A stretch of DNA of 64,000 nt from an uncultured Nitrososphaeraceae archaeon (GTDB taxonomy: Archaea; Thermoproteota; Nitrososphaeria; Nitrososphaerales; Nitrososphaeraceae), in NCBI GenBank assembly GCA_963729045.1, contig CAVSMN010000015.1, positions 128,001 through 192,000 on the forward strand, in the 5' to 3' direction. Positions within the stretch are counted from its first letter, which is position 1. Each line of letters starts with the position of its first letter. Shown here one piece after another: positions 11,444 to 52,029 of this stretch. The notes under the pieces were generated by a model that made no database searches, had not been told where the DNA came from, and saw only the letters and a list, made by a program, of their open reading frames with translations. A program made the translations under genes and the position numbers.

Positions 11444-11598
11444 ATTCGAGCCGGAAAAAATATTAGACAGAGTAGAATGAATTTGCAATTTTGCGGGTTA
11501 ATTTATTATTGAAACACCCTTAGTCGACACCGACAAAACTGTCCTGTGTCCAAGCTGAATGGTATCTTGTATTCATATGGGGCCAATCAGATTGGTTT

Positions 11599-14082: not shown

Positions 14083-14183
14083 TTCTTTTATAAATACCGG
14101 TTATTAGTTTATTGATAAATAAAATTACTAATTTATTAATAAAGATAGGTGATAACCCTTCCTTAAATCATCAAGAAAGTTTT

Positions 14184-14771
14184 CTATCTCCATTTCCAGA
14201 CCTTGGTAAGACCATTTCCCTCAGGGTCTACTGTTTTCTTGTAAATGCCAAATAAATTATCAAATTGTGTATAAAGTGAGTCTGTTGAATTCGAGGATAA
14301 GCTTGTAGAATTTGCTGAATTCATTTTGAAAGGCAAGTGGAAGACCATTATCCCACTATCTGAGAAACTTCCATCAGGATTGTAGTTACCTATTGATTCA
14401 GATCTGTAAGTTATGACTTGACCTGATGCTGTCAATATTATTGCTTGACCTTTAGAGGAAACTGTCCCATCATTATTCATCTTATCTACTATTGTACCTA
14501 TAGTTTGGGTTGGCGCTCCACCAATAGTACTGTTACCAGTATAAGTAACTTCAACAGTTGGAATGGGATCAATACTTGATACTTTAATGTTTGTTGATTT
14601 AGTATTTTCTGTATAAAATGGACTACCTAGTATATCGTAGTCATCCATGGTTGATAGATTAGAGTTAGAACTGTTTGCTTCTAAGGAACCAGTTTGACCA
14701 AAAGTGGATGATACGGCTGAAACTGACTCTATTATCATGAAAGAAGCCAATAGAAATACTACTAATAACAA
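14184..14771 (-). CDS. Secreted hypothetical protein
   Basis: Signal peptide, Ser/Thr/Asn-rich, ends in KVWKWR, a style of ending recalled from Nitrososphaeraceae hypotheticals. Confidence 0.65.
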   Translation of the reverse strand: MLLVVFLLASFMIIESVSAVSSTFGQTGSLEANSSNSNLSTMDDYDILGSPFYTENTKSTNIKVSSIDPIPTVEVTYTGNSTIGGAPTQTIGTIVDKMNNDGTVSSKGQAIILTASGQVITYRSESIGNYNPDGSFSDSGIMVFHLPFKMNSANSTSLSSNSTDSLYTQFDNLFGIYKKTVDPEGNGLTKVWKWR

Positions 14772-14982
14772 GAAACAAAGATATTCTTCTTAATGAATCA
14801 CTTAACATTGTACATTTAGTTTCTGATTCAATCATTATAGAAAAATCATATTAGGAAAATATAAAGGTTTAAGGAACTTCTTTTTACCTAATCACGTCTA
14901 TACCACATTGCTTGCCCTAATTATTGACCTAGGTCCTAATTTAAGTAAATATATTACGAATCCTTACCAGACGTTGACATAT

Positions 14983-21502: not shown

Positions 21503-22859
21503 TATCTAGTTGCTCCTTGGCTTGGCTTGGCTTGGCTGAGTTTGCACCGTACTGATAGGAAGAAATTACATCATTTGGATTGTTAGTATGTTGTTGGTTG
21601 TTATGGAGTGAGTTCTTATCAAGCTCATAGGAAGTGTGGTTATATACCATATTATTATTTTCTAAATCCGTATTCTTTACACCATTCTGACTAGAATCTG
21701 CTACGAGATAGGATTGATTGTTGGGAATAGATGCATTATTTGGGTTTTCTGCACTATTGCTCCTCAGATCAGCGTCATTTTTATCGTCTTGGCTGTTATC
21801 TATCACTTTGAACATACCCATCCAACCCTTTTCTGCAAATTCTGTTTTATGAGCGTGGAACATGTAATTTCCTGGATATTTATACTTGAATTCTAAGATA
21901 CCTCTTTCTCCTTGACTCATAGTTACGATGTCATTTAGCTCCGCAGGAGTTTGACTGGTTCCACTTGGATAATAGTTAAACATGTTAGCGTGCAAATGAA
22001 AGTTGTTTATTGGATCAAACTCTAGCATATTGACGAGATAAATTCTTGTTAGCTCATCCTTTTTGATCTCTATTGGATTGTGCATATAGAAATATGGAAT
22101 TCCATTTACAGTGTAAAAGTTATTTTCCGTGTCAAAGTCGGTATCATAACCATTCATAACCATGACCATTTCATCTGCCTGAGGTCTTGGAGTCTTTGGA
22201 TCAATAATCATCACACCATATAGTCCATGTGTTATATGTTCTTCTAGAGGTGTCATGTGACAATGGTATGGATAAACACCAAATGGTTCAGCCGTAAATT
22301 CATACGTGAACTTGCCCTTTGGGCCAATCATGTCAAAAACCCCGTCCATCTCTGCTGGATGAATTCCGTGGGTGTGCAGTGAATGAGGTTTTGAACCGTT
22401 ATTTATGAAATTGATCTTTAGGTGATCACCTTCTGTAGCTCGAATTGTCGGGCCAGGTATTGTGCCATTGTACGTCCATACATTGTAAAAAACCCCTGGT
22501 GACACTTCTTTTATTTCCGAATCCGAAGCAATTAGTGTGTATTCCCTTAGTGTGGTTCCATTTGGATATTTTGATACGTGTCCATAATTGAATTCACGTA
22601 AATATTGATTCGGATCTACTACTGCATTTTTTGAGTTGCCAGGAATAGAAATTGGATCTAGTATGTCTCCAGTTGATCTGAACACAGGATAGCCTGGAGT
22701 ATGACTTCCGATCATTTTCCTATTGTCGGTCGAGTTTTGAGCATGGGTATCAAAAGATGGATTTAATGGGTTAAGCAGGTAGGTAGACATAATCAAAGCT
22801 ACCGTAATTACAAATACAATTGAAAAAAGGGGCAATGCCAATCGCCTAAAATTTTGCAT
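21492..22859 (-). CDS. Two-domain multicopper oxidase (type-1 Cu ligands in domain 1)
   Basis: HSLHTH, YHCHMTPLEEHITHGLYG, FHLH, MFHAH; N-terminal membrane anchor; Asn-rich tail. Confidence 0.92.
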   Translation of the reverse strand: MQNFRRLALPLFSIVFVITVALIMSTYLLNPLNPSFDTHAQNSTDNRKMIGSHTPGYPVFRSTGDILDPISIPGNSKNAVVDPNQYLREFNYGHVSKYPNGTTLREYTLIASDSEIKEVSPGVFYNVWTYNGTIPGPTIRATEGDHLKINFINNGSKPHSLHTHGIHPAEMDGVFDMIGPKGKFTYEFTAEPFGVYPYHCHMTPLEEHITHGLYGVMIIDPKTPRPQADEMVMVMNGYDTDFDTENNFYTVNGIPYFYMHNPIEIKKDELTRIYLVNMLEFDPINNFHLHANMFNYYPSGTSQTPAELNDIVTMSQGERGILEFKYKYPGNYMFHAHKTEFAEKGWMGMFKVIDNSQDDKNDADLRSNSAENPNNASIPNNQSYLVADSSQNGVKNTDLENNNMVYNHTSYELDKNSLHNNQQHTNNPNDVISSYQYGANSAKPSQAKEQLDNER

Positions 22860-22871
22860 AATCTATATTAC

Positions 22872-22904
22872 TTAACTAGGTTAATAAATGTTAACCTTGG
22901 TTAA
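22872..22904. promoter_or_regulatory. Paired palindromic operator overlapping the MCO-ZIP promoter
   Basis: TTAACTAGGTTAA (22872-22884) and TTAACCTTGGTTAA (22891-22904), around a minus-strand TTTATTAA about 25 nt upstream of the ATG. Confidence 0.65.
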
Positions 22905-39223: not shown

Positions 39224-39747
39224 ATGCGAATTTCACCAGAAATGACAAAAGCAATTAATGAACAAATTTCTTATGAAGCCTCGTCCGCGAATGCATATAT
39301 TGCAATCGGATCATGGTGTGAGAGAACTGGATATGACGGTAGTGCAGCTTTCTTCTTTGAACAAGCTAGCGAAGAAAACCAACATATGCTGAGGTTCATT
39401 CATTATCTCAACGGTGCTGGTGCAGAAGCGATTGTTCCTGCAATAGATAAGCCTCAAAATAGCTTTGAATCACTTAAATCTGCATTTGAATTTGGTCTAC
39501 AAGGTGAGCAAACCGTATCCAAATCCATTTATGAGTTGGTGGATATGGCTGGAAAGAAAAAGATTATTCTACTTACTCATTTTTGCAATGGTTTGTAACC
39601 GAACAGATAGAGGAAGAGACATTATTTCAAACAATTCTCCAAAAATTTGATTTACTCGGTGGTGACAAATTGGCTATTTATCAGATCGATCAGTCTCTTT
39701 CTTCTATCAGATCCCAGATCGTGAGTAAGCAAGCAAAGCAGGGATAA
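39224..39747 (+). CDS. ftn: Non-haem ferritin; frameshift near 39555
   Basis: INEQISYE, EENQHM, then FLQWFVTEQIEEE in a shifted frame ending at TAA 39745-39747. Confidence 0.92.
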
Positions 39748-40056
39748 TCCTTATAGATGTAAAAATTCCAATTTATCTTTTTTAGTAATTCTCAGCTGGA
39801 AGTATTTCATTAACAAAAAATTTTGAACTCAAAATCTTTATTTTAGCCTCTTTTCTAGTAATCTTGTCTTACGCAATTTATTAATGTGTGTATTTTAATT
39901 GCTCTTCACTAACTCAATAAACAGATAGATTTCAGAGTCAATAAACATTTTAGACAATGAGTAGTGATTCGTTGCATTACCATTGATTACTTTTTTGAGT
40001 TTGAACATTAGACCTATATCCGATAGCATCCAAATGAACCGCTCAATCAACCTTGA

Positions 40057-40359
40057 ATAATACTTGGACGAATCATCCATATAATTACCTGTGAACTAGT
40101 AAGCTCGAGTGATCTCATATCAAGATTATTAATAAAAATATATGCCTCGAAACGTAAATTTGATGGCACTGTAAGAAAAAATTTAGTAGAACTATGTGAA
40201 TGCGAACTCGGCATAATGAATACTAGTTCATTCTGGAATGTCCATGTATTCAATAACGAAATTGAGAAGGAAGCGGATAACAAGAAATTTCGTGATGTCA
40301 AAGTGGATGAAGTAGATGGGGTTGATCAGGATTATTTAGATGAGCAAATTAATATGTGA
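40057..40359 (+). other. Open frame of about 100 codons without a canonical start; possible small acidic-tailed protein or gene remnant
   Basis: Stop-free from 40057 to TGA 40357-40359 (...KVDEVDGVDQDYLDEQINM*); absent from the ORF track. Confidence 0.3.
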
Positions 40360-41080
40360 TTCTTATTGGAAAAGATATTAAAAAATTTCAAAACTTAAGA
40401 CTTAATCGGATAAAACTGAGAACGAAAAAAATCAGATTTTTACTGATTCGCTATTTGAACACAAAATAACACCAACGATTTAGTCCAAATCTCTGAATTA
40501 CACACTGACTTTTGAAGCTCACTGAGAACCAAATTTAATTTTGTAAATTAATGCTTATCAAAATATTATGAAAATACCTCCATTATGCCGCGTCTTCGTT
40601 AAAAAATTTAGTAAAAAACAACCACTGGATTAAAAAAAGAAACCAAATTTAGACAAAACCATATTGCTGAGAATAATTCTATATATTCGTTTTTGCACTC
40701 AGATTTCTACAGAAGAACGGTATAAGGCAGTTTCTTCTACTTTCGCTAATAGGTCTATATTTAAGGAACCCTTGAAGAGTTATTTTGTAAAATTATTCTA
40801 AAGCCTTTCAAATAAAATTAAAAATATGACAATCATTAATTCTAGTTAATTACGTTATACTCTTCCGTTCTCTTACCTCGATAAAGTTGGTATTTGATGC
40901 TGGGCATTAGAGTCCAGTTTTTATCGTTTTCGATTACAAGTGTAATGGTTGATTGATTGCAAAAAATTGGATAGGATTTTTACCCTTTGTCAATATCTGA
41001 ATAATAATTTAAAGTTCAATAGTTAAAAGTATGTAACATACACTAGAAGCTCTTAAACGAGATGCATCTGTGCAAATATC

Positions 41081-41944
41081 ATGAGTCTCAACATTGCGGT
41101 AATTATTAAATTAGAACCGGATTTTTCTGACGGAAATGTAAGTTATAATCCGGATGGGACATTAAACAGAGCAGAAACTAAAACTATTTTGGGACATCAT
41201 AGTGCAATTGCATCACAAGCTGCCTTTTATGCTAAAGTAAAGTATGGTGCGCGTATATCTATTGGGACTATGGGTCCGCCAATGGCCGAATTGGCTCTTG
41301 ATCAATCACTATTATTATCTGACGCTGAAGAATTGCATCTATACAGCGACAGATCGTTTGCAGGTGCAGATACTCTGTCTACAGCAGAGGTTCTAAAAAC
41401 AGGGATATCCAAGATGAATGATGGAAAATCAATGGATATTGTATTTTCTGGCTTTAGAGCATCAGATGGTGAAACAGGTCAGACTGGTCCTCAAACGGCC
41501 TGGAAATTGGGTTTTACTTTCTTAGGTAATGTTATTAGCTACGAAATAGATATTGAAAAACGAGTAATAACTGCTGTCCGCCTTGTTTCATACGGAAATT
41601 ATAACCTGATAGAACAGGTGCAGGCACCTCTACCCGTTTTTATTGCTATAGATCCATCTTACAAATCTCCTTTTATGACAGTTTCTCAAAGATTAAGCGC
41701 ATCAAGATATCAAAAAGAAGCCACGATAAGATCGAGTAATTATAAATCAATTTTGAAAGTATTTAATGCTAAAGAATTGGGAGTTGATCCAAAATTAGTA
41801 GGGTTGCCTGGTTCACCTACAATTGTATATAAAGTGGAAAAAATTCCAAAAATAAAATCAAATAGGAGTGCACAGACCATTGAGAATATTGATACTGGTG
41901 AAATCTCTAACATTCTTGAGAAAATCCATGAAACAATTACATAA
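41081..41944 (+). CDS. fixA: Electron transfer flavoprotein beta subunit (FixA)
   Basis: TMGPP, SDRSFAGADTLST, GFRASDGETGQTGP, GLPGSPT. Confidence 0.92.
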   Translation: MSLNIAVIIKLEPDFSDGNVSYNPDGTLNRAETKTILGHHSAIASQAAFYAKVKYGARISIGTMGPPMAELALDQSLLLSDAEELHLYSDRSFAGADTLSTAEVLKTGISKMNDGKSMDIVFSGFRASDGETGQTGPQTAWKLGFTFLGNVISYEIDIEKRVITAVRLVSYGNYNLIEQVQAPLPVFIAIDPSYKSPFMTVSQRLSASRYQKEATIRSSNYKSILKVFNAKELGVDPKLVGLPGSPTIVYKVEKIPKIKSNRSAQTIENIDTGEISNILEKIHETIT

Positions 41945-41969
41945 ACAATGTGAGTGTGTGAATGAGTGA

Positions 41970-43305
41970 ATGAGCGTGAAAGAAATGAATGAAAATATGA
42001 ACAAGACAATAGATCAAACTGCTGCTTTGACGAAAGAGAAAGAGAAGGAGGTTGAGGTTAAGGAGGTTGACAACATCAATAAAATGAATGAGACAAGTAA
42101 ATACAGAAACTTGTATGTTATTATCGAACAAGTGGATGGTAAAATTATTCCTGTTGGTCTTGAAATGTTATCAGAAGCAAGGAGGCTTATCGATGATTTT
42201 AATAAAAAATATTCACTAAATGAAAAGGTAATTGCAGTAATTCTAGGCAATAATATTAAACATTTATGCAAGGAATTGATTTATTTTGGTGCAGACGCTG
42301 TCATTTTTGCAGACGACCCAAAACTAAATTATCATATAAATAAAATCTATACAAAAATAATTGTTCAAATAGCAACCAATGCAAAATATATCGAAAAGAT
42401 ATCGCCAGAATATTCTAAAGCGTTTAAACGACCTAGATACATGTTCTTTGCTGCCGATAGTACAGGACGACACTTGTCATCCACAGTTCTGGCAGAACTA
42501 GAATCTGGATTGGCCTCTGATATTAATAAACTGGTGATAGAAGATATCGACTTTAGACATGAACATAAAACAAAGGGACAAATGTTAACTTTTGAAAAAA
42601 CACTTAATGATGTATAGACCCGATTTCTCCGGATTTCTTTGGACTACTATTCTTTGTCTAGATAACAAAAATCCCGAAATAAAGAGGGATTATCATCCTC
42701 AAGCATGCAGTATTATTCCTGGTGTATTTGAACCATTAGAAAGAGATGTGTCTAGGACTGGGATAATTGAAGAATGTATTCCAGAGTTTGATACAAAAGA
42801 TCTTGAAATTAAAGTTCTAAGTAGAAATATTCTTAAAGACACGATCGATTTTGGCAGCTATAAAACAATAATAAGTTTTGGAAGGGGTATAAAAGAGGCT
42901 CCAGAAGAGAACATAAAGTTAATAGAAAAACTTGCAAAACTATTAAACGCTGAAATTGGTATATCACTTCCCATTTCAAAAAAACCTTTTAAGTTAAGTG
43001 ACAAAATGAATTCGCTCTATATTACTCCAGAAAGAGTAATAGGAACAAGTGGTCAAAAAGTCGAACCCACTATTTATATCGCATTGGGTATTAGCGGGGC
43101 CACTCAACATCTAGCAGGAATGAAAAATTCAGGATTTATTATAGCAGTAAACCCTGATGAAAATGCTCCAATAAAAAATGAATGCGATGTTTTCATTAAG
43201 GGAAGAATAGAGGATGTTTTACCAATCATGATAGAAGAGCTTGAGCGAGAAAAAATGACACAAACAAAAGAAGAAGAAGGTAGTGCCGTAGTTGGAACAG
43301 TTTGA
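41970..43305 (+). CDS. fixB: Electron transfer flavoprotein alpha subunit (FixB); frameshift near 42600
   Basis: FGADAV, SFGRG, IGTSGQKVEP, YIALGISGATQHLAGM, AVNPDENAPI. Confidence 0.92.
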
Positions 43306-45172
43306 TGTTGTAATAATTGGCGGCGGTTCTGCAGGTCTAGCTGCATTAAAGCAACTATCCTCTCAGGGAATTCAGGCAGTATTGATAGAAGCAGGATCTC
43401 CTGTAGGTTCAAAGAACGTCTCAGGTGGTATACTGTATTCAAAAAATCCTCAAACTGGTAAGGTTTATAATGTTGATGATATATTTGAAAATTTCCTACA
43501 GGAAAAACCATGGGAAAGACAAATTACAAAATATATCCTAAATTGTGTATCTAAAGACAAAGTCCTGTCAATCGATTTGACAGATTCCCATGATTATCAA
43601 TCTAATTTTGGTTGTTCTGTGTTATTAAATAAATTAAACTCTTGGTTTGCCAAACAATCTTTGGAGTCTGCGGAAAGAAATGGCGGAGGCATCGTAAGTG
43701 GAGTTCATGTTAGAAATATCAGATGGGATGATGAAAAAGGCAAAACAATTATCGAAACAGACGAGTTAGATGATTTTGAAGCCAAAGCTGTTATTGCTTC
43801 TGACGGAGTAAATTCAGAGATTGCAGAAATTACAGGAGCACGACAAAAATTTTCACCCCCGGAGTTATATCAAGGGGTAAAGGTTGTTATCAAATTACCA
43901 GAAGAAATAATAGAAGAAAGATTTAATCTAAATCCTGGGGAAGGAACAGCCCATATTTTTGCTGGCGACGTAACTCTCGATCACATTGGGGGAGGTTTTT
44001 TATATACCAATCTTGATTCTCTATCTGCGGGAGTTGTATATCATTATGACTCTTTGATTTCAAATCCAACAGGACCAAACAATCTTGTAAACGCGCTTCT
44101 AAATAATCCATTTGTCAAAGAATATATCAAAGATGAAGTAGCCTTAGAACCCTATCCAGACAAAACCTTATCTAAGATGGAACAATTACGCATTAAATTT
44201 GCAGTCAATAAACAGATAAAAAAATGGGAGAAATTGAGATTTGATTATTATTCGCATGAGGGCAAAAAGAGATTTCTTGAAGATAAAGAATTCAATTCTA
44301 TCGAGGAGGCAAAGTCAAAAATGGATGCTATTCACAAGGAATTACTTGAAAAATATAATACTAGATTTGAAACAGATTATGTAGAATTAGAGTATAGTAC
44401 GAAATTAATTCCGGACGGAAAACGCTGTAGAATGAAAAAGCCCTATATCAAAAACATATTATTCATAGGTGATGCTGCAGGAAGAGGATTATTCATTGGA
44501 CCACGAATCGAGGGATTAAATGTAGGAATTGATGATGCAGCAAGAGCATCTAACGCGATAAAACAAGCGTTAGAAAAAAATAATCTTGATATTACATCAA
44601 ACTATTTGGGTGAGCTTTATTCACAGTCTGTCCAACAAAGTCCTTATACAAGGGATATGGAAAGGATAGACAAGTATTATATCAAAACAATAATCGATGC
44701 TGCAGGCAAGCAAATTCCACCCCAACAGATAGGCAAGTATGGATTTCTTTTTAAGTTGTTTCTAAATGATAAATTAAGAAACGTGTCTATTGACATTGTT
44801 AACAAAATAGGGTACAATAATATGTTATCACTAATAGAATCAAAAGAGACATACATAAATACTCCAATAAATCTCGCAGAAAAACTCGGTACCAAAACCA
44901 TCTCTGAATATTCAATATCTATTCCAGAATTATCTCAACGGATATCGAGTTTAAGTTACAATGATGATCCACAAAGTCATATCAAAATAACAAACTCAAA
45001 AAGCGAATTTATGAAAAAAATGGTTACACTTTGTCCAACTAAATGCTACAGTCTTGAAGGAGAGGATGTAGTTTTGCAACATGAGGGTTGCATAGAATGT
45101 GGGACATGTTCCCCAGAAACAGAATGGAGACATCCAAGAGGTGAAAAAGGAATACAATACAAGTATGGATAA
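43292..45172 (+). CDS. fixC: FixC-like FAD oxidoreductase fused to a C-terminal FixX-like ferredoxin
   Basis: GGGSAG, GSKNVSGG, ASDGVNS, IGDAAG; tail LCPTKCY...GCIECGTC...WRHPRGEKGIQYKYG. Confidence 0.9.
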   Translation: MEQFDVVIIGGGSAGLAALKQLSSQGIQAVLIEAGSPVGSKNVSGGILYSKNPQTGKVYNVDDIFENFLQEKPWERQITKYILNCVSKDKVLSIDLTDSHDYQSNFGCSVLLNKLNSWFAKQSLESAERNGGGIVSGVHVRNIRWDDEKGKTIIETDELDDFEAKAVIASDGVNSEIAEITGARQKFSPPELYQGVKVVIKLPEEIIEERFNLNPGEGTAHIFAGDVTLDHIGGGFLYTNLDSLSAGVVYHYDSLISNPTGPNNLVNALLNNPFVKEYIKDEVALEPYPDKTLSKMEQLRIKFAVNKQIKKWEKLRFDYYSHEGKKRFLEDKEFNSIEEAKSKMDAIHKELLEKYNTRFETDYVELEYSTKLIPDGKRCRMKKPYIKNILFIGDAAGRGLFIGPRIEGLNVGIDDAARASNAIKQALEKNNLDITSNYLGELYSQSVQQSPYTRDMERIDKYYIKTIIDAAGKQIPPQQIGKYGFLFKLFLNDKLRNVSIDIVNKIGYNNMLSLIESKETYINTPINLAEKLGTKTISEYSISIPELSQRISSLSYNDDPQSHIKITNSKSEFMKKMVTLCPTKCYSLEGEDVVLQHEGCIECGTCSPETEWRHPRGEKGIQYKYG

Positions 45173-45568
45173 ATTCATCTCTCGGCCCTATTACGCCTTA
45201 AACTAATTTCATCTTCTGACCTGGTATATTTTATTTTACTTTGTTAAAACTCTAATTCCACTATTAAAGAAGGATAACATTTATCTATTTTCCTATGTTT
45301 TTTTAGCTTTGTAAATAAGATAGTTATTATAGTAACTTTGAAATGATTTGACCGTTAAGGAATTAATCAACAAAGAGAATCGAGCATGGGGGTTAACAAT
45401 AAAAGAAAAGCTATTTTTTGCTAGGAAAAATCAGCTCTATCATGTGTAATATTTTAAGACATTTTTTGACTTATTATTTAACAAATGATAAATAAATCTG
45501 TTAGCTATATATCAATTGTAAACAAAAATTGCAGACAAGTTTATCTTTTTTAATGTTGTCATATATCA

Positions 45569-47065
45569 ATGCAAGTAGAAAAAACCTTTAAAAATTCTGA
45601 AATGGATGTGATAAATGAATTAAAAAGATCTGGGATAAAATGGGTACGACTAAATTTTTGCGACCCTTTTGGATTTCTTCATCAAATATCTGTAAACAGC
45701 ACTGAAATTACAGAGGATGCATTTAAGCAGGGATTGCCTAGACTGGATGGTAGTTCCATAAAAGGATTCAAAGAGATATATGAATCAGACATGCTACTCA
45801 AACCAGACCCTTCCACTTTTGCAATCTTGCCAGAATATTTTGACAAGAATAATCATAACAGGAGAAATTATGCCTACCCTTCCATGGCTGCGCGTATGTT
45901 TGTTGATATTTATGACGGATATGGAGGGAGAAGGTATTCCAGAGATTGCAGATATATAGCACAAAAAGCAGAAGAATTCTTAAAGAACAAAGGTTTTGAG
46001 AAAAGTTATTGGGGACCTGAATTAGAATTTTTTGTATTCAATAAAATATCACTTCTTCCAAGTCCTATGTCTTCGGTAAATTGTTCTGGTGGATCAGGAT
46101 ATTCAATAGAGTCTGGAGAAGCACCATGGAATTCTTCAGGTGGTAATGATTATACGATCCCATTTAAAGGAGGATATTTTCCCGCACCTCCAGCCGACAG
46201 TTTAACAGATTTAAGAGACGAAGTATCAGAAACACTGCAAGAATTTTTTGGAATACAAGTTGATGCACATCATCATGAGGTTGCAACAGCCGGACAGTGT
46301 GAAATTCAAATGGTGTATGACGATCTTACTAGAATGGCGGATAAAGTTGTTACCTATAAGAAGACCGTAAAAGAAGTCGCTGCTAAACGTGAAATGATTG
46401 CAAACTTTATGCCCAAACCAGTTGCCCTTGACAATGGTTCAGGTATGCACGTAAGCCAGAGTTTATGGACAAAAAAGAAATACGGGCATGACGCAAACAT
46501 GTTCTTTGATGTTTCCGACGATTACGCAGAACTAAGTCAAACAGCACATTACTATATTGGAGGCATAATAGATCACGCTAGAGCACTATGTGCTTTAACA
46601 AATCCAACTACTAACTCATATCGAAGATTAGTCCCCGGCTTTGAGGCTCCAATTAACGTGGCGTGGAGTAAAATGAATAGGTCAGCTAGCATCAGAATAC
46701 CGTCTCATTATAAAAATATGGAGAAGCAAAAAAGAATAGAATATAGGACACCTGATCCGAGTTCAAACATTTATCTTGTGGAGTCGGCTTTATTACTAGC
46801 AGGACTTGACGGAATCAACAAAAAAATATCTCCTCCAGACCACGTGGATAAAGATATCTACAAACTCACAGAGCAAGAAAAGAGAGAATATGGGATTAGA
46901 AAATTGCCTACCTCTTTGTTAGAAGCTATCGAGTCACTAGAATCTGATGCTGATTTTTTGAATCCTGTATTTGCAGCCGACTTTATTGAGATGTATTGTC
47001 AGATTAAAAAGGATGAGCATGCAGCAGTAGCCGCAATACCTTCGCCTAGAGAATTCTATATGTAA
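45569..47065 (+). CDS. glnA: Glutamine synthetase type I
   Basis: DGSSIKGF, GPELEFF, KGGYFP, HHHEVATAGQCEI, FMPKP..DNGSGMH, NSYRRLVPGFEAP, NRSASIRIP, RIEYRTPDP. Confidence 0.96.
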   Translation: MQVEKTFKNSEMDVINELKRSGIKWVRLNFCDPFGFLHQISVNSTEITEDAFKQGLPRLDGSSIKGFKEIYESDMLLKPDPSTFAILPEYFDKNNHNRRNYAYPSMAARMFVDIYDGYGGRRYSRDCRYIAQKAEEFLKNKGFEKSYWGPELEFFVFNKISLLPSPMSSVNCSGGSGYSIESGEAPWNSSGGNDYTIPFKGGYFPAPPADSLTDLRDEVSETLQEFFGIQVDAHHHEVATAGQCEIQMVYDDLTRMADKVVTYKKTVKEVAAKREMIANFMPKPVALDNGSGMHVSQSLWTKKKYGHDANMFFDVSDDYAELSQTAHYYIGGIIDHARALCALTNPTTNSYRRLVPGFEAPINVAWSKMNRSASIRIPSHYKNMEKQKRIEYRTPDPSSNIYLVESALLLAGLDGINKKISPPDHVDKDIYKLTEQEKREYGIRKLPTSLLEAIESLESDADFLNPVFAADFIEMYCQIKKDEHAAVAAIPSPREFYM

Positions 47066-47098
47066 GAGAATTCTATATGAGGAATGTTTAGGTAATAT

Positions 47099-48565
47099 AT
47101 GTCGTATCCTAAAGATATATTAGAAATCAAAAGAAATCTTCTAAAAGAGGTTTCTTCTACCTCCGTTGTTGCCAAGAATGATAATTTAAATTTCTTATAT
47201 TACGATCAATCAAAAATTATTCTAGATGCAAGAAAAGCATTTGACGGTCTTATTCCTTATTCAGGGCTAGGCGCTAATTCCACAAATGATTATTTTTCTT
47301 CCATCGATCTCATTGGTGGATCTATTAAAACAGACGTTGATTATAGTAATGTCGATCTATCCTTAACTATTGGAGGCCTTTATTCAAACAGAAAAATAAC
47401 CACGGATATTCCGTTTTTTGTCTCTGGTATGAGCTATGGGTCATTAAAACTTCCTGCAAAAATAGCATTGCACCTAGCATTAAATCAGCTTGCTGATGAC
47501 GGAATAAGAGTTATAATGAATACTGGGGAAGGAGGAGCACTACCTTGGGAAGTTCATGATTTTGACAATGGTGATCCCAATATAACGGAATATGTATCTA
47601 GGCTACTTAAGGAACACAATTTAGACAGTATAGATAGAGAACAGCTTTTTCGCAGAAAGTATCCATTGGTGGTTCAATATGCATCAGGAAGATTTTGGAA
47701 AGATCCTGACTACTTGCTCAATGCAGATGCAATAGAGATCAAGATAGGACAAGGTGCAAAAATAGGACATGGTGGATTGTTACCAGGCTCAAAAGTGACA
47801 GAATTAGTGGCAGAAAACCGTGGTATACCTCCCTATAAGTCGGCTCATTCCCCATCAAGACACCTTGATATCTTGGGACCAGAAGATCTGGTTGCAAAAA
47901 TTCTTGAGTTAAGAGAGCTTACTAACTGGAATGTTCCTATTATTGTAAAAGTGGGGGCATCAAGAGTTCATGACGATATTGCCATAATACTCAAATCTTG
48001 TTCAGATGCAGCTGCTATTGATGGTTACGTAGGAGGTACTGGGGCTGCTCCTTGGGAGATTCGAGATAGTATAGGTGTAAACACAATACCTGCAATAAGG
48101 TTGGCTAAAGATGCAATAGACAATTATTATTCAGAGAGGGATATGGAAGAGTTTAAACTAATTGCTCATGGTGGCATTTGGGATTCAAAACGAATCGCAA
48201 AATGCATCGCTCTTGGGTCAAATGGAGTAGGTATAGGTACAGGGTTTCTCATATCGATGGGATGCACATTGGTTCAGGATTGTTATACCAATACTTGCCC
48301 TGCAGGATTAACTGGGTCGTATGAAAAATTAAACATACAATCCAGTGTAAAGAGAATAGTCAATTATATTAAGGGAACAAGGATCGAACTGCAAAATATC
48401 GTAGGTTCTTTAGGAAAGAATAGAATACGGGATCTCAACAAAGAGGATCTTTTTGCGACTGATGAGATATCCAACTTGGTATCAGGATTATCTACAAACG
48501 ATACGAATTACCATAACAAGATAAAGAGTAAGAATATACAGACACTAGGATGTATCGGAGATTAA
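47099..48565 (+). CDS. Glutamate synthase FMN-binding subunit (GltB2/GlxD-like) with [3Fe-4S] motif
   Basis: SGMSYGSL, NTGEGG, QYASGRF, EIKIGQGAKIGHGGLLPGSKV, HSPSRH, GGTGAAP, CTLVQDCYTNTCPAG. Confidence 0.92.
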   Translation: MSYPKDILEIKRNLLKEVSSTSVVAKNDNLNFLYYDQSKIILDARKAFDGLIPYSGLGANSTNDYFSSIDLIGGSIKTDVDYSNVDLSLTIGGLYSNRKITTDIPFFVSGMSYGSLKLPAKIALHLALNQLADDGIRVIMNTGEGGALPWEVHDFDNGDPNITEYVSRLLKEHNLDSIDREQLFRRKYPLVVQYASGRFWKDPDYLLNADAIEIKIGQGAKIGHGGLLPGSKVTELVAENRGIPPYKSAHSPSRHLDILGPEDLVAKILELRELTNWNVPIIVKVGASRVHDDIAIILKSCSDAAAIDGYVGGTGAAPWEIRDSIGVNTIPAIRLAKDAIDNYYSERDMEEFKLIAHGGIWDSKRIAKCIALGSNGVGIGTGFLISMGCTLVQDCYTNTCPAGLTGSYEKLNIQSSVKRIVNYIKGTRIELQNIVGSLGKNRIRDLNKEDLFATDEISNLVSGLSTNDTNYHNKIKSKNIQTLGCIGD

Positions 48566-48570
48566 TAAAA

Positions 48571-49695
48571 ATGAATATCAAAGAAAAATTTATAATACGA
48601 TCTTCAATCTTGGAATTAGCAGAAACAGGTCTTCCTCGCAATGTTTCCATAGATGATAAAATAAGACTTGAACAAAAAAATGGTGATGAGCCAAAAACTG
48701 AAGACTTGTGGAATTGTATTACTGCATTAGGTGCACAACTATCGCGACCCCCATACGATCCATATCGAGAAATAATTAATCTTGATATATCCATAGGTCG
48801 AAGACAATGTCCCAACAAAGTTATTCTATCAATGCCTTTGATAATTTATGATAATGACATGCAAATAGATGAAACGACGTTAGAGTCACTCCACGTTGCG
48901 TTAAATAAGCTAAAGAACTTTAACACAAACTTGGGGCTTATTTCAGAAAAGAGAATAAAAAATAGAAATTACCCACATTTTAGAAGATTAAATGAAAGAA
49001 CGGCAGTATTAGAGGAAGAAGAAGAAGACGATTATGGCACCGATGGCCTTGTATTTCAATGCAACGATGAAAAGTCCCTACAATTTCTGACTGATATAAG
49101 AAAAGAATTTAATGGGCCAATCCTTGTTGAGGTGGATAATTCTTTTGAAAGATTTCTTGGACCATTGTTAGACGCAGGAGCTGATGGGATTATTGCAAAT
49201 ACTATCAAAATAACAAATAAATCAAAATACAAAGAAATGCATGCAATAAAAGTTATACACGATATAAGATGCGCGATAGACCAGTACTATGCTGGAAAGG
49301 AAAATGATGGGACAGTACTAATAGTTGCTGGAGACGTTAATAATACTGGAAGGATTGTAAGAGCTGCTGCATTAGGTGCAGATATCATTGGATACTCCAC
49401 AAGCTTATTGATTGCTAATGCTGCTCATCACTATGAGGTTCAATCCAACCTGGATACAGTATCCGATAGGATATACAAACACGTGTTGGCTACTAAGGGA
49501 GAACTTAAAGGAGTACCTGCCGCATTAGGATATAGTAATTTCTATAATCTTTCATCCTCAGATTTGCGTACATCAAGTATTGAGGCAAGTATACAGGCAG
49601 ATATTGCAATAGAAGGAACAAACAAAACTTATCGTCAAATAATTGAGGATTTTATATATAAGTATACGACAGAAGAACAACTGAGATCTGAATAA
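48571..49695 (+). CDS. Divergent glutamate-synthase FMN-domain paralogue lacking the Fe-S cysteines
   Basis: AQLSRPPYDPYRE, LSMPLII, LIVAGDV, RAAALGADIIG, ALGY...DLRT; no EIKxGQG or CX5CX4C motif. Confidence 0.65.
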   Translation: MNIKEKFIIRSSILELAETGLPRNVSIDDKIRLEQKNGDEPKTEDLWNCITALGAQLSRPPYDPYREIINLDISIGRRQCPNKVILSMPLIIYDNDMQIDETTLESLHVALNKLKNFNTNLGLISEKRIKNRNYPHFRRLNERTAVLEEEEEDDYGTDGLVFQCNDEKSLQFLTDIRKEFNGPILVEVDNSFERFLGPLLDAGADGIIANTIKITNKSKYKEMHAIKVIHDIRCAIDQYYAGKENDGTVLIVAGDVNNTGRIVRAAALGADIIGYSTSLLIANAAHHYEVQSNLDTVSDRIYKHVLATKGELKGVPAALGYSNFYNLSSSDLRTSSIEASIQADIAIEGTNKTYRQIIEDFIYKYTTEEQLRSE

Positions 49696-49759
49696 ATCTC
49701 AAAAACAGGAACTAGTTGAATATCTGTTGATAAATAGGTAATGGAGGGGTGGAAGGAAC

Positions 49760-50638
49760 ATGTGTGGAATTTGTGGGATTATATTAAAAGAACATACCGA
49801 TTCAAATTTCTTAGTAGGTGCATTGCTTTACAAGATGATGGAAAGCCAGCAAGTAAGAGCACAAGATAGCGCCGGAATAGCCATTTATAATAATGACGAG
49901 AATTGTCAAAGTAATTCGTTTTCTAATCTTGCCTATCTTATGAAGTGTGAAAATGAATACGAGCTGAGGGAAGAAAGGACTACTACAGGATTTAAATATT
50001 CAAAAGAATCCGACCAACTAGTTTCCAGGTTAAAGAAAGACGAAAACGTTTCAATTATGGGTTATACTAAAGAAATGAAGTTGATAAAGAATGTGGGTCT
50101 AGTGAGAGACCTTGATAAAAAATACAATATAAGATCAATGAAAGGGACTCACGGGATTGGACATTTGAGAATAGCGACAAGCAGTAACGTCGATCCAAGC
50201 AATGCTCATCCATTTAGTACTACTGTTATGCCAGATATTGCAGTAGTACATAACGGAGAAATAGCAAATTATTCCAAATTAAGAAATATGCTAGAAATTA
50301 AAGGGTACCCCTTCTATTCTAGCTGTGATTCAGAGGTAATAGCAATATTTCTTGTTGATCAGCTATTACAGCATGGCGACCTAAAAAGGGCGCATGATGA
50401 ATTTATCCAAAAAGCTGATGGACCTTTTACATATATTGCTTCTACCAATCGTACATTGTCATTAGTAAGGGATAGATTTGGAACAAGAAAGGGTATTGTG
50501 GGGTATAATCCTGGGTCAGATGGGATTCCTGCATTTTGGGCAATGGCGACGGATCTATCTGCATTGGATATCATCGGAGCGAATAAAGACGTGAAAGCAG
50601 CGTCACCAGGTAAGTCGCTGATTTTTGCCATAGAATAA
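49760..50638 (+). CDS. Class II (Ntn) glutamine amidotransferase, GltB1/GlxB-like
   Basis: N-terminal MCGICG, DSAGIA, GIGHLRIAT, NAHPF, VHNGEIANY, CDSEVI. Confidence 0.9.
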   Translation: MCGICGIILKEHTDSNFLVGALLYKMMESQQVRAQDSAGIAIYNNDENCQSNSFSNLAYLMKCENEYELREERTTTGFKYSKESDQLVSRLKKDENVSIMGYTKEMKLIKNVGLVRDLDKKYNIRSMKGTHGIGHLRIATSSNVDPSNAHPFSTTVMPDIAVVHNGEIANYSKLRNMLEIKGYPFYSSCDSEVIAIFLVDQLLQHGDLKRAHDEFIQKADGPFTYIASTNRTLSLVRDRFGTRKGIVGYNPGSDGIPAFWAMATDLSALDIIGANKDVKAASPGKSLIFAIE

Positions 50639-50675
50639 ATAAATTAATAAGGCATGAATCAACGACCAAAGATTA

Positions 50676-51600
50676 ATGTGTTACATGTTAGATATAGATG
50701 AACTTGGGTTAATAGTAAAAGAAATAGGTTCAAAAATATCTAATCCGGATACGCAATTTGAAAGGGTTAACACTATATTTGAGCAACATTATGGGATAAA
50801 ACTCCCAGATGGTATAAAACGTGCATCGATTGAAAAATTTGGAGATATTGTAAGCTCCCCACTGATAATGGAACGAGCAATAAATTTAATCATAAGTAAA
50901 AAGGTGATCGAGGGCGAAACTAAGATCATAATAAAAAACCCACGGTCCCTATACAGAATAGGAATACTCAGTTTTGACAAGACAATAAAACTCGATCTAG
51001 TGGTAGATGGTAACGTAGGTAATTTTTTTGGAGCATTTTGCAATTTTGATGGCACATGGACAGTAAAAGGGAACAGCGAGAATGGGTTGGCAGATAAAGG
51101 TTATAAGGGCAAAATAATTGTAGAGGGCTTTGCCACGGAATTGGCATGTCAAAATAATCAAGCAACTGAATTTAGTACCGGTGTGGACGTCTTGATCAAA
51201 AAAGGATGTATGGAAAGGGCGATGGGACAGGCAAGGGGTGGAAGACTGGTAACTTTTGGCGCAGGATATAATTCGGGGTTGTATATGTCAGGTGGTATAT
51301 TGCTTAATTTGGGATTGCCAGGTGAATTATTTGGTCCAGGGATGGTTGGAGGCGTAATTTATTCTCCCAAACGGAACTACTGCAGCCGAAGGTGCACAAA
51401 TTGATAGATTGTCAGTAGAAGATTACTCAATAATAAGAGAAACACTGCTGGTATTTGAAAAAGAACTGTGTATTGAACAATTAAATGATTTTTCAATAGA
51501 AAACCCCATAATATCCCTAACGAATAAATCAATGGATGATAATCAAAAATACGATATGCGTGACTTTATCAAAATAGTGCCTGATTTAAGATCACAATAA
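50676..51600 (+). CDS. GXGXG-domain glutamate synthase subunit (GltB3/GlxC-like); frameshift near 51370
   Basis: DGNVGNFFGA, GAGYNSGLYMSGG, GELFGPGMVGGVIY; continues as GTTAAEGAQID into ORF 51409-51600. Confidence 0.82.
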
Positions 51601-52029
51601 CCTGAAATCTTCTTTCGCAGTAATTAAGACAATGTGGGTATTGGTTCTATCGATATATGGAAGTGATAAATCATGCTTGACAAAATCACTTAACTCCGAA
51701 CGATTCTTAAACTTTGCAATGATTATTAAATCAGTCAAGCCTGTAATATCATAAACTGCACAAACATTAGAAAATTTTGAAATATGTCTTTGTACCTCAA
51801 TTATTTTATTCTTAATGGCAGTAACTTCAATTACTGCTGTCAAATCAAACCCAATTTTTGCATAATCTACCATTGCCGAATATGATTTTATTACCTCATC
51901 TCTTTCGAGTCTTGATATTCGATTAAGTACGGTAGGTGGAGAAATTCCCAATTCAAACGCTATTTTTCTATACGAACTCCTAGCATCTGTTAGCAGTCTT
52001 CTTAATATTTTTGAATCTATTTCATCCAT
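51592..52029 (-). CDS. Lrp/AsnC-family transcriptional regulator
   Basis: DEIDSKIL..DARSSYRKIA..LGISPPTV HTH; VYDITGLTD. Confidence 0.95.
   Translation of the reverse strand: MDEIDSKILRRLLTDARSSYRKIAFELGISPPTVLNRISRLERDEVIKSYSAMVDYAKIGFDLTAVIEVTAIKNKIIEVQRHISKFSNVCAVYDITGLTDLIIIAKFKNRSELSDFVKHDLSLPYIDRTNTHIVLITAKEDFRLL

What the first reader, a model, noticed from the sequence alone, without database searches (positions are those of the whole stretch)
41081..52029. fixABCX + glutamine synthetase + four-piece split glutamate synthase + Lrp: candidate low-potential nitrogen-assimilation module in an AOA
Seen: eight co-oriented genes (fixA, fixB, fixC-fixX fusion, glnA, FMN subunit, second FMN-like subunit, Ntn amidotransferase, GXGXG subunit) closed by a convergent Lrp. 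Gaps from glnA onward are only tens of bp. No NAD(P)H-binding GltD subunit is in the window. Known: FixABCX bifurcates electrons to ferredoxin/flavodoxin in diazotrophs, and GOGAT without GltD needs ferredoxin or another donor. From recall, AOA are usually described as using GDH/GS and often lacking GOGAT. Inference: Fix may supply reductant to a modular GS-GOGAT, giving an amino-acid-regulated, high-affinity assimilation route. The roughly 400-bp gap between fixC and glnA means adjacency could be chance.
Basis: partly seen in the sequence, partly recalled or inferred. Interest (0 to 1): 0.8.

Follow-up and report, generated by a model that had tools for sequence, protein, structure and literature searches.

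The report
Split glutamate synthase cassette beside fixABCX
A soil ammonia-oxidising archaeon carries a glutamine synthetase plus four-piece glutamate synthase gene cassette with its own regulator and promoter, already reported for its genus, next to a widespread electron-transfer flavoprotein operon whose role as the cassette's electron supplier is possible but not shown.

Summary
One correction: fixB is read in two frames here because of one extra base. That base is missing in 7 of 7 relatives and in 3 of 3 public runs that cover it, so it is probably an assembly error.

The stretch holds two units.

(1) fixABCX is an ETF system of the bifurcating type. FixCX was found in 141 of 151 genomes of the family.

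(2) lrp plus glnA-gltB2-orf7-gltB1-gltB3 was found in only 24 of 151. It has an invariant gene order, its own TATA-like box, and two palindromes at -91 and -60 from glnA. orf7 is a degenerate paralogue of the FMN subunit and is predicted to bind it. No GltD was found, so the donor is probably a soluble ferredoxin.

The four-subunit GOGAT is already published for two Nitrosocosmicus species.

The fix-cassette adjacency is more than chance: 13 of 22 assessable genomes, in three arrangements, with two fix lineages. It is absent in 9 of 22, and one close relative has the same fix operon without the cassette. No shared operator or bridging transcript was seen.

Fix as the dedicated reductant supplier remains a hypothesis, at about 0.2.

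The parts
41081..41944 (+). fixA / etfB-type small ETF subunit
   Evidence: PF01012, 68.6 bits. All 5 of 5 solved matches are small subunits of bifurcating ETFs, 7koe_A best at E 1.7e-28.
41970..43305 (+). fixB / etfA-type large ETF subunit, read in two frames in this assembly (41970-42617 and 42592-43305; one extra T near 42602)
   Evidence: ETF domain in piece 1 and ETF_alpha in piece 2. One continuous frame in 7 of 7 relatives. The extra base is absent in contigs of runs X1, X15 and X16; X2 has no cover there.
43292..45172 (+). fixC-fixX fusion (FAD oxidoreductase plus ferredoxin-like C-terminus)
   Evidence: NCBIfam FixC, 164.5 bits (below its cut-off of 610), at residues 3-256; FixX at 558-626. 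Solved matches are 7koe_C (E 4.5e-27) and 7koe_D (E 3.3e-07).
45173..45568 (.). Intergenic region. It holds T-runs after fixCX (about 45228-45305), a distal palindrome at 45478-45491, a proximal half-conserved site at 45509-45522, and a TATA-like TTTATCTTTT at 45540-45549.
   Evidence: Sequence. The distal site lies at -91 in 20 of 24 loci and the proximal site at -60/-61 in 15 of 24, at up to 2 mismatches. The 55-nt two-site profile scores 47.7 here; the next best place in the genome scores 22.4. No RNA-library contig covers about 45273-45610, while DNA run X1 covers up to 45553.
45569..47065 (+). glnA, a cassette-specific type I glutamine synthetase paralogue
   Evidence: TIGR00653, 516.4 bits, above the cut-off of 429. 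It is 49% and 41-47% identical to the genome's two other GS loci. It lies next to gltB2 in every locus where that side is held: directly upstream and co-oriented in the family's loci, divergent in L059.
47099..48565 (+). gltB2, FMN / 3Fe-4S subunit of glutamate synthase
   Evidence: PF01645, 276 bits. It aligns to Azospirillum GltB 907-1161, including the Cys-x5-Cys-x4-Cys stretch. C389, C395 and C400 are invariant in 12 of 12 sequences.
48550..49695 (+). orf7, a degenerate paralogue of the FMN subunit. It may play the part of a central domain. The true start is probably the ATG at 48571.
   Evidence: No Pfam family at E 0.001. 25% identity to gltB2 over 198 aa, E 2e-9. Weak Glu_synthase hits in 14 of 14 members and weak Glu_syn_central hits in 6 of 14. 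The model (pLDDT 61) matches FMN TIM barrels at TM 0.36-0.48. Predicted complex with gltB2: score 0.85 against best control 0.51.
49760..50638 (+). gltB1, class-II (Ntn) glutamine amidotransferase subunit
   Evidence: GATase_6 and GATase_7. The sequence begins Met-Cys-Gly.
50676..51404 (+). gltB3, GXGXG subunit
   Evidence: PF01493, 47.7 bits, above the cut-off of 32.5. The only solved match is the C-terminus of the glutamate synthase large chain, 7mfm_G 1274-1405, E 0.0033.
51592..52029 (-). Lrp/AsnC-family regulator, convergent with the cassette
   Evidence: HTH_AsnC-type plus AsnC_trans_reg. It lies next to the cassette in 20 of 23 assessable family loci, in three placements.

Best explanation
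The stretch holds two neighbouring but separately promoted units.

Unit 1, fixABCX, encodes an electron-transferring flavoprotein of the bifurcating type with a FixCX quinone-reductase/ferredoxin-like partner. It is a near-universal gene set of this archaeal family, and its presence does not depend on glutamate synthase.

Unit 2 is a self-contained nitrogen-assimilation cassette. It comprises a dedicated glutamine synthetase, four separate polypeptides that together supply the parts of a glutamate synthase large subunit, and a linked Lrp-type regulator. The four polypeptides are the FMN/3Fe-4S subunit, a degenerate FMN-domain paralogue (orf7) that binds it, an Ntn amidotransferase, and a GXGXG subunit.

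Inferred regulation: the regulator binds two 14-bp palindromes (TTAAC-N4-GTTAA) at -91 and -60 from glnA, upstream of a TATA-like box placed as for a leaderless or short-leader mRNA.

Inferred chemistry: GS makes glutamine. GltB1 releases ammonia from it. The ammonia is added to 2-oxoglutarate on GltB2, and the iminoglutarate is reduced by FMN with electrons that arrive through the 3Fe-4S cluster. There is no GltD and no built-in 2x[4Fe-4S] domain, so the electrons most likely come from a soluble ferredoxin, as in ferredoxin-dependent GOGAT. Which system reduces that ferredoxin is not determined; candidates are Fix, 2-oxoacid:ferredoxin oxidoreductases, and ferredoxin:NADP reductase.

Shown here: gene content, domain families, conservation of gene order, conserved promoter architecture, distribution, and absence of GltD. 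Inferred: enzyme activity, subunit assembly, Lrp binding, and the donor.
For: -
- Gene order glnA-gltB2-orf7-gltB1-gltB3 is the same in every family locus that holds the genes. In L059, from another family, glnA is divergent but still adjacent.
- Own promoter: the distal palindrome sits at exactly -91 in 20 of 24 loci. 17 of 24 loci have a site with at most 1 mismatch, against a shuffle mean of 0.91 and a maximum of 5 in 500 shuffles. This holds whatever lies upstream, whether fixCX, ACAD, fixA or lrp.
- The two-site profile has one outstanding place in the 2.85-Mb genome, 47.7 against a next best of 22.4.
- None of the 9 fixA upstream regions carries the two-site arrangement.
- Homology to G032 covers only 40957-45225, that is fixABCX alone.
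- FixCX was found in 141 of 151 family genomes and gltB2 in 24 of 151.
- orf7 with gltB2: predicted complex score 0.85, best control 0.51. That mark was reached by 116 of 157 solved complexes and 2 of 215 mismatched pairs. The runs agree in at least 91% of contacts, and the partner's pLDDT is at least 84.
- Natural fusions of an FMN domain with an orf7-like domain exist: P0158, P0165 and P0166.
- No Fer4_20/GltD was found in the own genome or in 4 of 5 cassette-holding relatives.
- Contigs from two RNA libraries of different studies cover all genes and bridge glnA-gltB2, orf7-gltB1 and gltB1-gltB3. None listed covers about 45273-45610.
- Published description of the four-subunit GOGAT in Nitrosocosmicus: PMC6657660.
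Against: - No activity, transcript mapping or binding assay exists for any part.
- The RNA evidence comes from assembled contigs of metatranscriptomes. These can hold DNA, cannot show transcript ends, and were listed only in part (181 pieces not shown).
- The promoter and operator conservation is among relatives, so part of it is shared descent.
- The complex prediction may partly reflect the solved FMN-central domain interface of bacterial GltS. One control, with chain 1 replaced, scored 0.51.
- The orf7 model is of middling confidence (pLDDT 61).
- The adjacency to fix is clearly non-random (13 of 22 assessable genomes), and every cassette holder examined has FixCX. A functional tie is therefore not excluded.
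- The genome is only 87% complete, so a GltD or other partner could lie in the missing part. Against this, the 99%-complete G043 also lacks it.
Confidence: 0.6

Rival explanations
1. FixABCX is the dedicated reductant supplier of the cassette. It bifurcates NADH electrons to quinone and to a ferredoxin or flavodoxin that feeds the 3Fe-4S cluster of the split GOGAT. The two units then form one low-potential nitrogen-assimilation module.
For: - fix genes lie within 8 kb of glnA in 13 of 22 assessable species-level genomes, in three arrangements. They are co-oriented directly upstream in 8, divergent in 4, and co-oriented with lrp in between in 1.
- Two fix lineages sit beside the cassette within one genus. 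In the FixCX tree the window's type groups with g12/g5 (SH-aLRT 99) and the other g1 type with g8. Holding g1 together costs 24 log-likelihood units, AU p 0.034. In the GltB2 tree g1 is one clade, support 100.
- All 25 cassette-holding genomes examined have FixCX: 24 in the family, one of them only as a fragment at a contig end, plus G330 in a family where 30 of 151 have it.
- Within g1, 10 of 10 cassette holders are among the 15 of 22 genomes with FixCX.
- FixA and FixB match bifurcating ETFs over their full length. Non-bifurcating ETFs match only the C-terminal FAD domain.
- No GltD was found.
Against: - FixCX is in 141 of 151 family genomes but the cassette in only 24 of 151, so Fix has another, general role.
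- G032 has the same fix operon without the cassette.
- Nine of 22 assessable genomes are unlinked, including large-contig genomes G078 and G012 and also G330. Metagenome loci L100 and L086 show no fix within 7.0 and 6.0 kb.
- The cassette has its own promoter and operators, and fixA lacks them.
- RNA-library contigs stop after fixCX and resume inside glnA (a weak hint only).
- Physical linkage and shared descent alone can produce the co-occurrence within g1.
- Other ferredoxin reductants are on record for AOA. OFOR and fnr appear in a figure legend of PMC7554672 (passages read).
- The AU p of 0.034 is marginal, and long stems (0.38 and 0.23) are in play.
Confidence: 0.2
2. The enzyme takes electrons from NAD(P)H or F420H2 through an unlinked or unrecognised partner. 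orf7 might be the docking subunit. This is what the published descriptions imply when they call the reaction NADPH-dependent.
For: - PMC6657660 and PMC10432482 describe GOGAT as NADPH-dependent in general terms.
- orf7 has an FMN-oxidoreductase-type TIM-barrel fold and no assigned role.
- The genome is 87% complete.
Against: - No Fer4_20/GltD domain was found in the own genome or in 4 of 5 relatives. The one hit, in G012, lies on a different contig from the cassette.
- orf7 has no invariant cysteine. Where it aligns with gltB2 it lacks the Cys stretch and, by my reading of the alignment, the GGTGA-type phosphate-binding stretch (the motif name is recalled).
- The papers give no experiment on the donor in the passages read.
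Confidence: 0.12
3. The four glt-like genes do not make glutamate synthase. They would make a related amidotransferase-type enzyme such as N-methylglutamate synthase (MgsABC) or a GlxBCD-like enzyme, with the GS homologue acting as a gamma-glutamyl-amide synthetase.
For: - Split GltB1/GltB2/GltB3-like genes next to a GS homologue are also the layout of the methylamine pathway (recalled knowledge).
- The amidotransferase matches GATase_6/7 rather than the GltS-type GATase_2.
Against: - The GS passes the type I GlnA equivalog model (516 bits, cut-off 429). It fails the type III model (217 bits, cut-off 469.6) and the gamma-glutamylputrescine synthetase model.
- The three cluster cysteines are invariant in 12 of 12 sequences, which fits a redox enzyme.
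- No sarcosine-oxidase-like mgd genes appear among the window's ORFs. The whole genome was not searched for them.
Confidence: 0.05

Closest known systems
Four-subunit 'archaeal type' GOGAT reported in Ca. Nitrosocosmicus arcticus (NARC_80135-80138) and Ca. N. oleophilus (PMC6657660; review PMC10432482)
   Same: Same genus-level lineage, and the same set of four subunit genes beside AOA genes. One orf7 homologue carries the name of N. arcticus. The window's cassette is 82-95% identical in protein to those of close relatives.
   Different: In the passages read, the paper does not mention the linked glnA, the lrp, the operators, the nature of the fourth subunit, the lack of GltD, or the neighbouring fixABCX. 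It calls the reaction NADPH-dependent. Its supplements were not opened.
Ferredoxin-dependent glutamate synthase (single-chain Fd-GOGAT; solved as 1llw/1ofd) and the alpha subunit of NADPH-GOGAT (1ea0, 2vdc)
   Same: Same cofactor logic: an Ntn amidotransferase, an FMN domain with one Cys-x5-Cys-x4-Cys cluster stretch, a GXGXG domain, and a second cofactor-less barrel-like module. gltB2 aligns to residues 907-1161 of 2vdc/1ea0 at E 2.6e-32.
   Different: Here the four modules are separate genes in the order FMN, paralogue, amidotransferase, GXGXG. The amidotransferase is of the PurF/GlmS-like GATase_6/7 type. orf7 reaches the central-domain model only weakly (6 of 14 members, best E 0.0013).
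Glutamate synthase genes of non-AOA families of the same class (f10, f11): glnA, gltB1 and a GXGXG-2x[4Fe-4S]-FMN fusion
   Same: GS is linked to GOGAT genes, with the same three catalytic modules.
   Different: Those carry a built-in ferredoxin-type dicluster domain and no orf7. The window's type has orf7 and no dicluster domain.
EtfABCX of Thermotoga maritima (7koe) and FixABCX of Azotobacter
   Same: Same four modules. The best solved matches for FixA, FixB, FixC and FixX are all chains of 7koe. That these enzymes bifurcate from NADH to ferredoxin and quinone is stated in abstracts listed.
   Different: FixC and FixX are fused here, and FixC carries a divergent C-terminal half. NCBIfam scores are far below the equivalog cut-offs. 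The organism is an aerobic ammonia oxidiser without nitrogenase. fixABCX in soil thaumarchaea has been known since fosmid work, with its function stated as undetermined (PMC3379541).

Membership tests
Glutamate synthase (GltS large-subunit type) | FMN-binding domain PF01645 above the curated cut-off | tested here: met
   276.3 bits against a cut-off of 20.4.
Glutamate synthase (GltS large-subunit type) | Three cysteines of the 3Fe-4S cluster (Cys-x5-Cys-x4-Cys). Their role as ligands is recalled. | tested here: met
   They align to the GCIMVRQCHSNTCP stretch of 2vdc_A. C389, C395 and C400 are invariant in 12 of 12 sequences.
Glutamate synthase (GltS large-subunit type) | N-terminal-nucleophile glutamine amidotransferase with Cys directly after the start Met | tested here: met
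   The sequence begins MCG. GATase_6, 63 bits, and GATase_7, 54.7 bits.
Glutamate synthase (GltS large-subunit type) | GXGXG C-terminal domain PF01493 | tested here: met
   47.7 bits against a cut-off of 32.5.
Glutamate synthase (GltS large-subunit type) | Central domain PF04898 | tested here: inconclusive
   orf7 gave no hit at E 0.001. Six of 14 family members gave weak hits, best E 0.0013, below the cut-off. Fused relatives carry a partial Glu_syn_central match at the junction.
Glutamate synthase (GltS large-subunit type) | Glutamine:2-oxoglutarate amidotransferase activity | not testable with these tools
   Needs an enzyme assay.
NADPH-dependent GOGAT (GltBD) | GltD small subunit with a Fer4_20 domain | tested here: not met
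   PF14691 gave 0 matches in the own genome, 87% complete. It gave 0 in G043, G073, G078 and G330, and one unlinked match in G012.
FixABCX / bifurcating EtfABCX | EtfB-like and EtfA-like subunits (PF01012, PF00766) | tested here: met
   The EtfA frame is broken in this assembly only.
FixABCX / bifurcating EtfABCX | FixC flavoprotein and FixX ferredoxin-like protein at the curated equivalog level | tested here: inconclusive
   FixC model 164.5 bits against a cut-off of 610. FixX model 26 bits against a cut-off of 166. The best solved matches are 7koe_C and 7koe_D.
FixABCX / bifurcating EtfABCX | Second (bifurcating) FAD site and NADH-dependent ferredoxin reduction | not testable with these tools
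   The only indication is full-length similarity to bifurcating ETFs, with only C-terminal similarity to non-bifurcating ones.
Lrp/AsnC regulators | AsnC-type HTH plus AsnC_trans_reg ligand domain | tested here: met
   53.9 and 42 bits, both above their cut-offs.
N-methylglutamate pathway (GmaS + MgsABC) | GS homologue of the type III / gamma-glutamyl-amide synthetase kind | tested here: not met
   TIGR03105, 217 bits against a cut-off of 469.6. The type I GlnA model is passed.

The most novel reading that the evidence does not exclude
In soil ammonia-oxidising archaea of the Nitrosocosmicus lineage, a bifurcating FixABCX makes the low-potential ferredoxin that drives a split, ferredoxin-type glutamate synthase. 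Selection for this coupling would have brought two different fix lineages next to the cassette. The cassette's fourth subunit (orf7), a degenerate duplicate of the FMN subunit, would repeat in separate genes the step by which the bacterial enzyme's 'central domain' arose.
Probability: 0.2. Interest if true: 0.65.

Novelty: new member of a known kind. Interest (0 to 1): 0.35.

Why it matters
Ammonia assimilation in AOA is usually described as GDH-based, with GOGAT lost in their ancestor (PMC7554672). The reason for GS-GOGAT in some Nitrosocosmicus is stated as unknown (PMC10432482).

This analysis adds several things to that picture:
- The cassette is wider spread than the two cultured species. 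It is in 24 of 151 family genomes across five genera, and in one genome of a second family.
- It always carries its own GS paralogue and usually an Lrp-type regulator with a conserved two-site operator.
- It has no NAD(P)H subunit, so the 'NADPH-dependent' label in print is unlikely to hold.
- Its fourth subunit is a lineage-restricted degenerate FMN-domain paralogue.

The link to fixABCX would give soil AOA a bifurcation-driven, high-affinity assimilation route. That would bear on their energy budget, but it is not established.

Tried and rejected
- A conserved programmed frameshift or natural split in fixB. I suspected this when both halves hit overlapping coordinates in all relatives. It was rejected because all 7 relatives read in one frame and only the window has an extra base.
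- An acyl-CoA dehydrogenase as the conserved partner of the fix operon. It lies between fixA and glnA in G019 and G096. In the family it is in 91 of 151 genomes and mostly far from fixCX or on other contigs. It was not found in the window's genome at E 1e-60.
- A small ferredoxin gene in the long gltB1-gltB3 gaps of some loci. No ORF of 35 aa or more with a cysteine pattern was found in 9 gaps.
- The cassette palindrome upstream of fixA or lrp. There is no two-site arrangement in any of the 9 fixA upstream regions, and only scattered single sites upstream of lrp. The single pattern is frequent by chance in this AT-rich window: 10 matches against 4.9 expected.
- Distant orf7 relatives (P0133-P0137, about 30% identity) as an independent test of fix linkage. 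They were not found in species genomes; all 28 loci are Nitrososphaerales. In metagenome contigs 21 relatives came back: 18 are the family's own cassette type and 3 are distant gltB2-like only. Their context therefore stays unknown.
- The listing of cluster members for the names of the distant relatives was not available.
- Profile search of orf7 against solved structures gave only weak TIM-barrel hits, best E 0.00088.
- The search of earlier findings gave nothing.
- Parts of the stretch without cover in single runs (for example X1 at 47632-48379) are not read as absence.

Full report
**What is there.**
The window is G000:C15:128001-192000 of a 2.85-Mb, 22-contig genome that is 87% complete. 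It has about 33% G+C and carries an archaeal amoA on the same contig. Record titles of near-identical loci read Candidatus Nitrosocosmicus or Nitrososphaeraceae.

- fixA 41081-41944
- fixB 41970-43305
- a 626-aa fixC-fixX fusion 43292-45172
- a 396-bp gap
- glnA 45569-47065
- FMN subunit gltB2 47099-48565
- orf7 48550-49695
- class-II amidotransferase gltB1 49760-50638
- GXGXG subunit gltB3 50676-51404
- a convergent Lrp/AsnC gene 51592-52029

Flanking genes are unrelated to nitrogen assimilation: PPK2, ferritin and a patatin-like protein upstream, and polysaccharide deacetylase, a methyltransferase and NAPRTase downstream.

**The fixB break.**
In this assembly fixB is read in two frames. Both halves hit overlapping coordinates in every relative, so I first suspected a conserved recoding event. 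Translating the junction showed one continuous frame in 7 of 7 relatives and one extra T in the window alone.

Contigs of public runs that hold near-identical DNA lack that base in 3 of 3 runs that cover it: X1 (DNA), X15 and X16 (RNA libraries). X2 has no cover there.

The same assembly shows two more frame breaks:
- Topoisomerase I is broken at about 13213-13271. It is one open frame of 815-871 aa in three relatives.
- A second glnA, on contig C14, is also broken.

I read the fixB break as an assembly indel, or at most a strain-level mutation.

**The cassette.**
glnA passes the type I GlnA equivalog model. It is only 49% and 41-47% identical to the genome's two other GS loci, so it is a cassette-specific paralogue. 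Two GDH genes are also present in the genome.

gltB2 aligns to residues 907-1161 of the Azospirillum large subunit, including the Cys-x5-Cys-x4-Cys stretch. The three cysteines are invariant in 12 of 12 sequences.

orf7 has no Pfam family at E 0.001. The evidence on what it is:
- It is a paralogue of gltB2 (25% identity over 198 aa, E 2e-9) without that Cys stretch.
- Its members give weak Glu_synthase hits in 14 of 14 and weak Glu_syn_central hits in 6 of 14.
- A middling model (pLDDT 61, pTM 0.64) matches FMN-dependent TIM barrels at TM 0.36-0.48.
- The family is small. It has 82 representatives at E 0.001 among 1.84 billion proteins, and 11 at E 1e-30.
- In one genome per species of 185,579 species it was found only in Nitrososphaerales, at 28 loci.
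- Proteins that fuse an FMN domain to an orf7-like domain exist.
- A complex prediction of gltB2 with orf7 scored 0.85 against a best control of 0.51. That mark was reached by 116 of 157 solved complexes and 2 of 215 mismatched pairs. The runs agree in at least 91% of contacts, and the partner's pLDDT is at least 84. The solved FMN-central interface of bacterial GltS may contribute to this pass by likeness.

The four genes thus supply the four modules of a GltS large subunit in split and permuted form.

**The electron donor.**
No GltD-type domain was found in the genome. None was found in 4 of 5 cassette-holding relatives of 98-99% completeness; the one hit, in G012, is unlinked.

Non-AOA families of the same class carry glnA, gltB1 and a GXGXG-2x[4Fe-4S]-FMN fusion. 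The window's type lacks that dicluster domain.

The cofactor set here is therefore that of ferredoxin-dependent GOGAT, and a soluble ferredoxin is the most economical donor. This is inference. The papers call the reaction NADPH-dependent in general terms.

**Own promoter and regulator.**
The order glnA-gltB2-orf7-gltB1-gltB3 is the same in every family locus that holds the genes. In L059, from another family, glnA is divergent but adjacent.

lrp lies next to the cassette in 20 of 23 assessable family loci, in three placements: convergent downstream, divergent upstream, or co-oriented upstream.

The 100 nt before glnA are conserved whatever lies further upstream. They hold a TATA-like box about 20-30 nt before the ATG and two 14-bp palindromes of the form TTAAC-N4-GTTAA.
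- The distal palindrome is at exactly -91 in 20 of 24 loci.
- The proximal one is at -60/-61 in 15 of 24.
- 17 of 24 loci have a site with at most 1 mismatch, against a shuffle mean of 0.91 and a maximum of 5.

Relatedness inflates such counts, but the surrounding bases have diverged. A 55-nt profile of the two sites has one outstanding place in the genome: 47.7 here against a next best of 22.4. The window itself is 1 of the 21 training rows.

None of the 9 fixA upstream regions has this arrangement. I infer that the linked Lrp-type protein binds these sites.

**Is fix part of it?**
Evidence against a dedicated link:
- FixCX is in 141 of 151 family genomes (18 of 18 genera). gltB2 is in 24 of 151 (5 of 18 genera). 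These counts include genomes the tool flags as unpublished: G035, G077 and G099.
- G032 has the same fix operon at 88% DNA identity, but homology ends about 50 bp after fixCX and about 120 bp before fixA, and there is no cassette.
- Nine of 22 assessable genomes are unlinked: L026, L034, L036, G078, G117, G138, L043, G012 and G330. Metagenome loci L100 and L086 show no fix within 7.0 and 6.0 kb.
- RNA-library contigs of two studies end 30-100 nt after the fixCX stop and resume at 45611 and 45682, while DNA run X1 covers up to 45553. This is a weak hint only, because contigs cannot show transcript ends.

Evidence for a link:
- 13 of 22 assessable genomes have fix within 8 kb of glnA, in three arrangements.
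- All 25 cassette holders examined have FixCX. This includes G330, in a family where 30 of 151 have it (the 151 include unpublished G280).
- Within g1, all 10 cassette holders are among the 15 of 22 genomes with FixCX.
- The fix operon beside the cassette is of two lineages. In the FixCX tree the window's type groups with g12/g5 (SH-aLRT 99) and the other g1 type with g8. Holding g1 together is marginally rejected (AU p 0.034). GltB2 of g1 is one clade, support 100.
- FixA and FixB resemble bifurcating ETFs over their full length.

Linkage and shared descent can explain much of the co-occurrence, and other ferredoxin reductants exist. I put the dedicated-supplier model at about 0.2.

**What is known.**
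- The four GOGAT subunits are published for Ca. N. arcticus and Ca. N. oleophilus (PMC6657660, passages read) and repeated in a review (PMC10432482, passages read).
- GOGAT appears in a figure legend of a reconstruction for another soil clade (PMC11131427, passage read).
- GOGAT loss in the AOA ancestor is inferred in PMC7554672 (passages read).
- fixABCX in soil thaumarchaea has been described since fosmid studies, with its function left open (PMC3379541, passage read).
- One preprint states that fixABCX is not in any Nitrosocosmicus (10.1101/2020.07.17.208546, passage read). That does not fit loci titled Nitrosocosmicus that hold fix genes: L021, L024, L025 and L027.
- I found no paper that links fix to GOGAT in AOA. 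The searches were made, in the held library only. Supplements were not opened.

**Verdict.**
The GS-GOGAT cassette is a further member of a published kind, now better defined: a dedicated GS, an Lrp operator pair, the orf7 paralogue, no GltD, and a wider distribution. The Fix coupling is a reasonable but unproven idea, with mixed comparative evidence.

Noticed in passing
window 11706-14016 (-), and G000:C14:35785-36892: Topoisomerase I is split into 267-aa and 521-aa ORFs inside its Topoisom_bac domain, while three relatives have one frame of 815-871 aa. A second glnA on contig C14 is also in two frames. Together with fixB, this points to indel errors in the assembly.
   Followed up: partly
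window 48550-49695 (orf7), residues about 58-74: The invariant stretch GAQLSRPPYDPYRE of orf7 is predicted to touch gltB2 at residues 323-328 and close to 216-225 and 388-391. gltB2's own PF01645 match starts only at profile position 61. orf7 may supply in trans an N-terminal element that the FMN subunit has lost.
   Followed up: partly
L060 (G159:C10) 9015-13449; L062 (G164:C33) 9416-12468: Non-AOA families of the same class have gltB1 and a 710-715-aa fusion of GXGXG, a 2x[4Fe-4S] ferredoxin domain and the FMN domain, without orf7. L060 also has glnA directly upstream. A gltB2-like match was found in 7 of 10 genomes of family f10 and 7 of 8 of f11.
   Followed up: partly
L059 (G330:C70) 6151-15746: The one cassette found in a second family (gltB2 64% identical) has glnA divergent from gltB2. 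It lies about 1.7 kb from a nitrite/sulfite reductase gene (NIR_SIR, 604 aa) and near a weak P-II-like ORF. FixCX of that genome is on another contig.
   Followed up: partly
L011 8415-9698; L012 9776-11059; L032 2675-3955: An acyl-CoA dehydrogenase gene lies between fixA and glnA in two g1 genomes and next to glnA in a third locus. Elsewhere in the family it is mostly unlinked to fix, and it was not found in the window's genome at E 1e-60.
   Followed up: yes
L013 9136-10029 (same genome as L029): Transposase remnants (HTH_32/HTH_33 and DDE_3 fragments) lie between fixA and glnA. This fits rearrangement at this junction.
   Followed up: no
L014 / L038 (G078:C8): This cassette looks decayed. 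gltB3 matches only residues 14-69, no lrp is nearby, and neither glnA palindrome is present.
   Followed up: no
window 22881-22904: Two overlapping matches to TTAAC-N4-GTTAA (0 and 1 mismatch) lie just upstream of a multicopper oxidase gene (21492-22859, -). Single matches are common by chance in this AT-rich DNA (10 found, 4.9 expected).
   Followed up: no
G000:C5:13890 (-): This is the second-best match (22.4) to the two-site glnA operator profile in the genome. The gene beside it was not looked at.
   Followed up: no
window 39600-41080: About 1.5 kb upstream of fixA has only one 84-aa ORF without a family. Homology to relatives begins at different points here (40314, 40957, 41011), so the left border of the fix operon is a variable junction.
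   Followed up: partly
L021, L024, L025, L027 (record titles Candidatus Nitrosocosmicus sp.): These loci hold fix genes, and 14 of 21 g1 genomes have FixCX. This is at odds with a preprint's statement that fixABCX is in none of the Nitrosocosmicus genomes it compared.
   Followed up: partly
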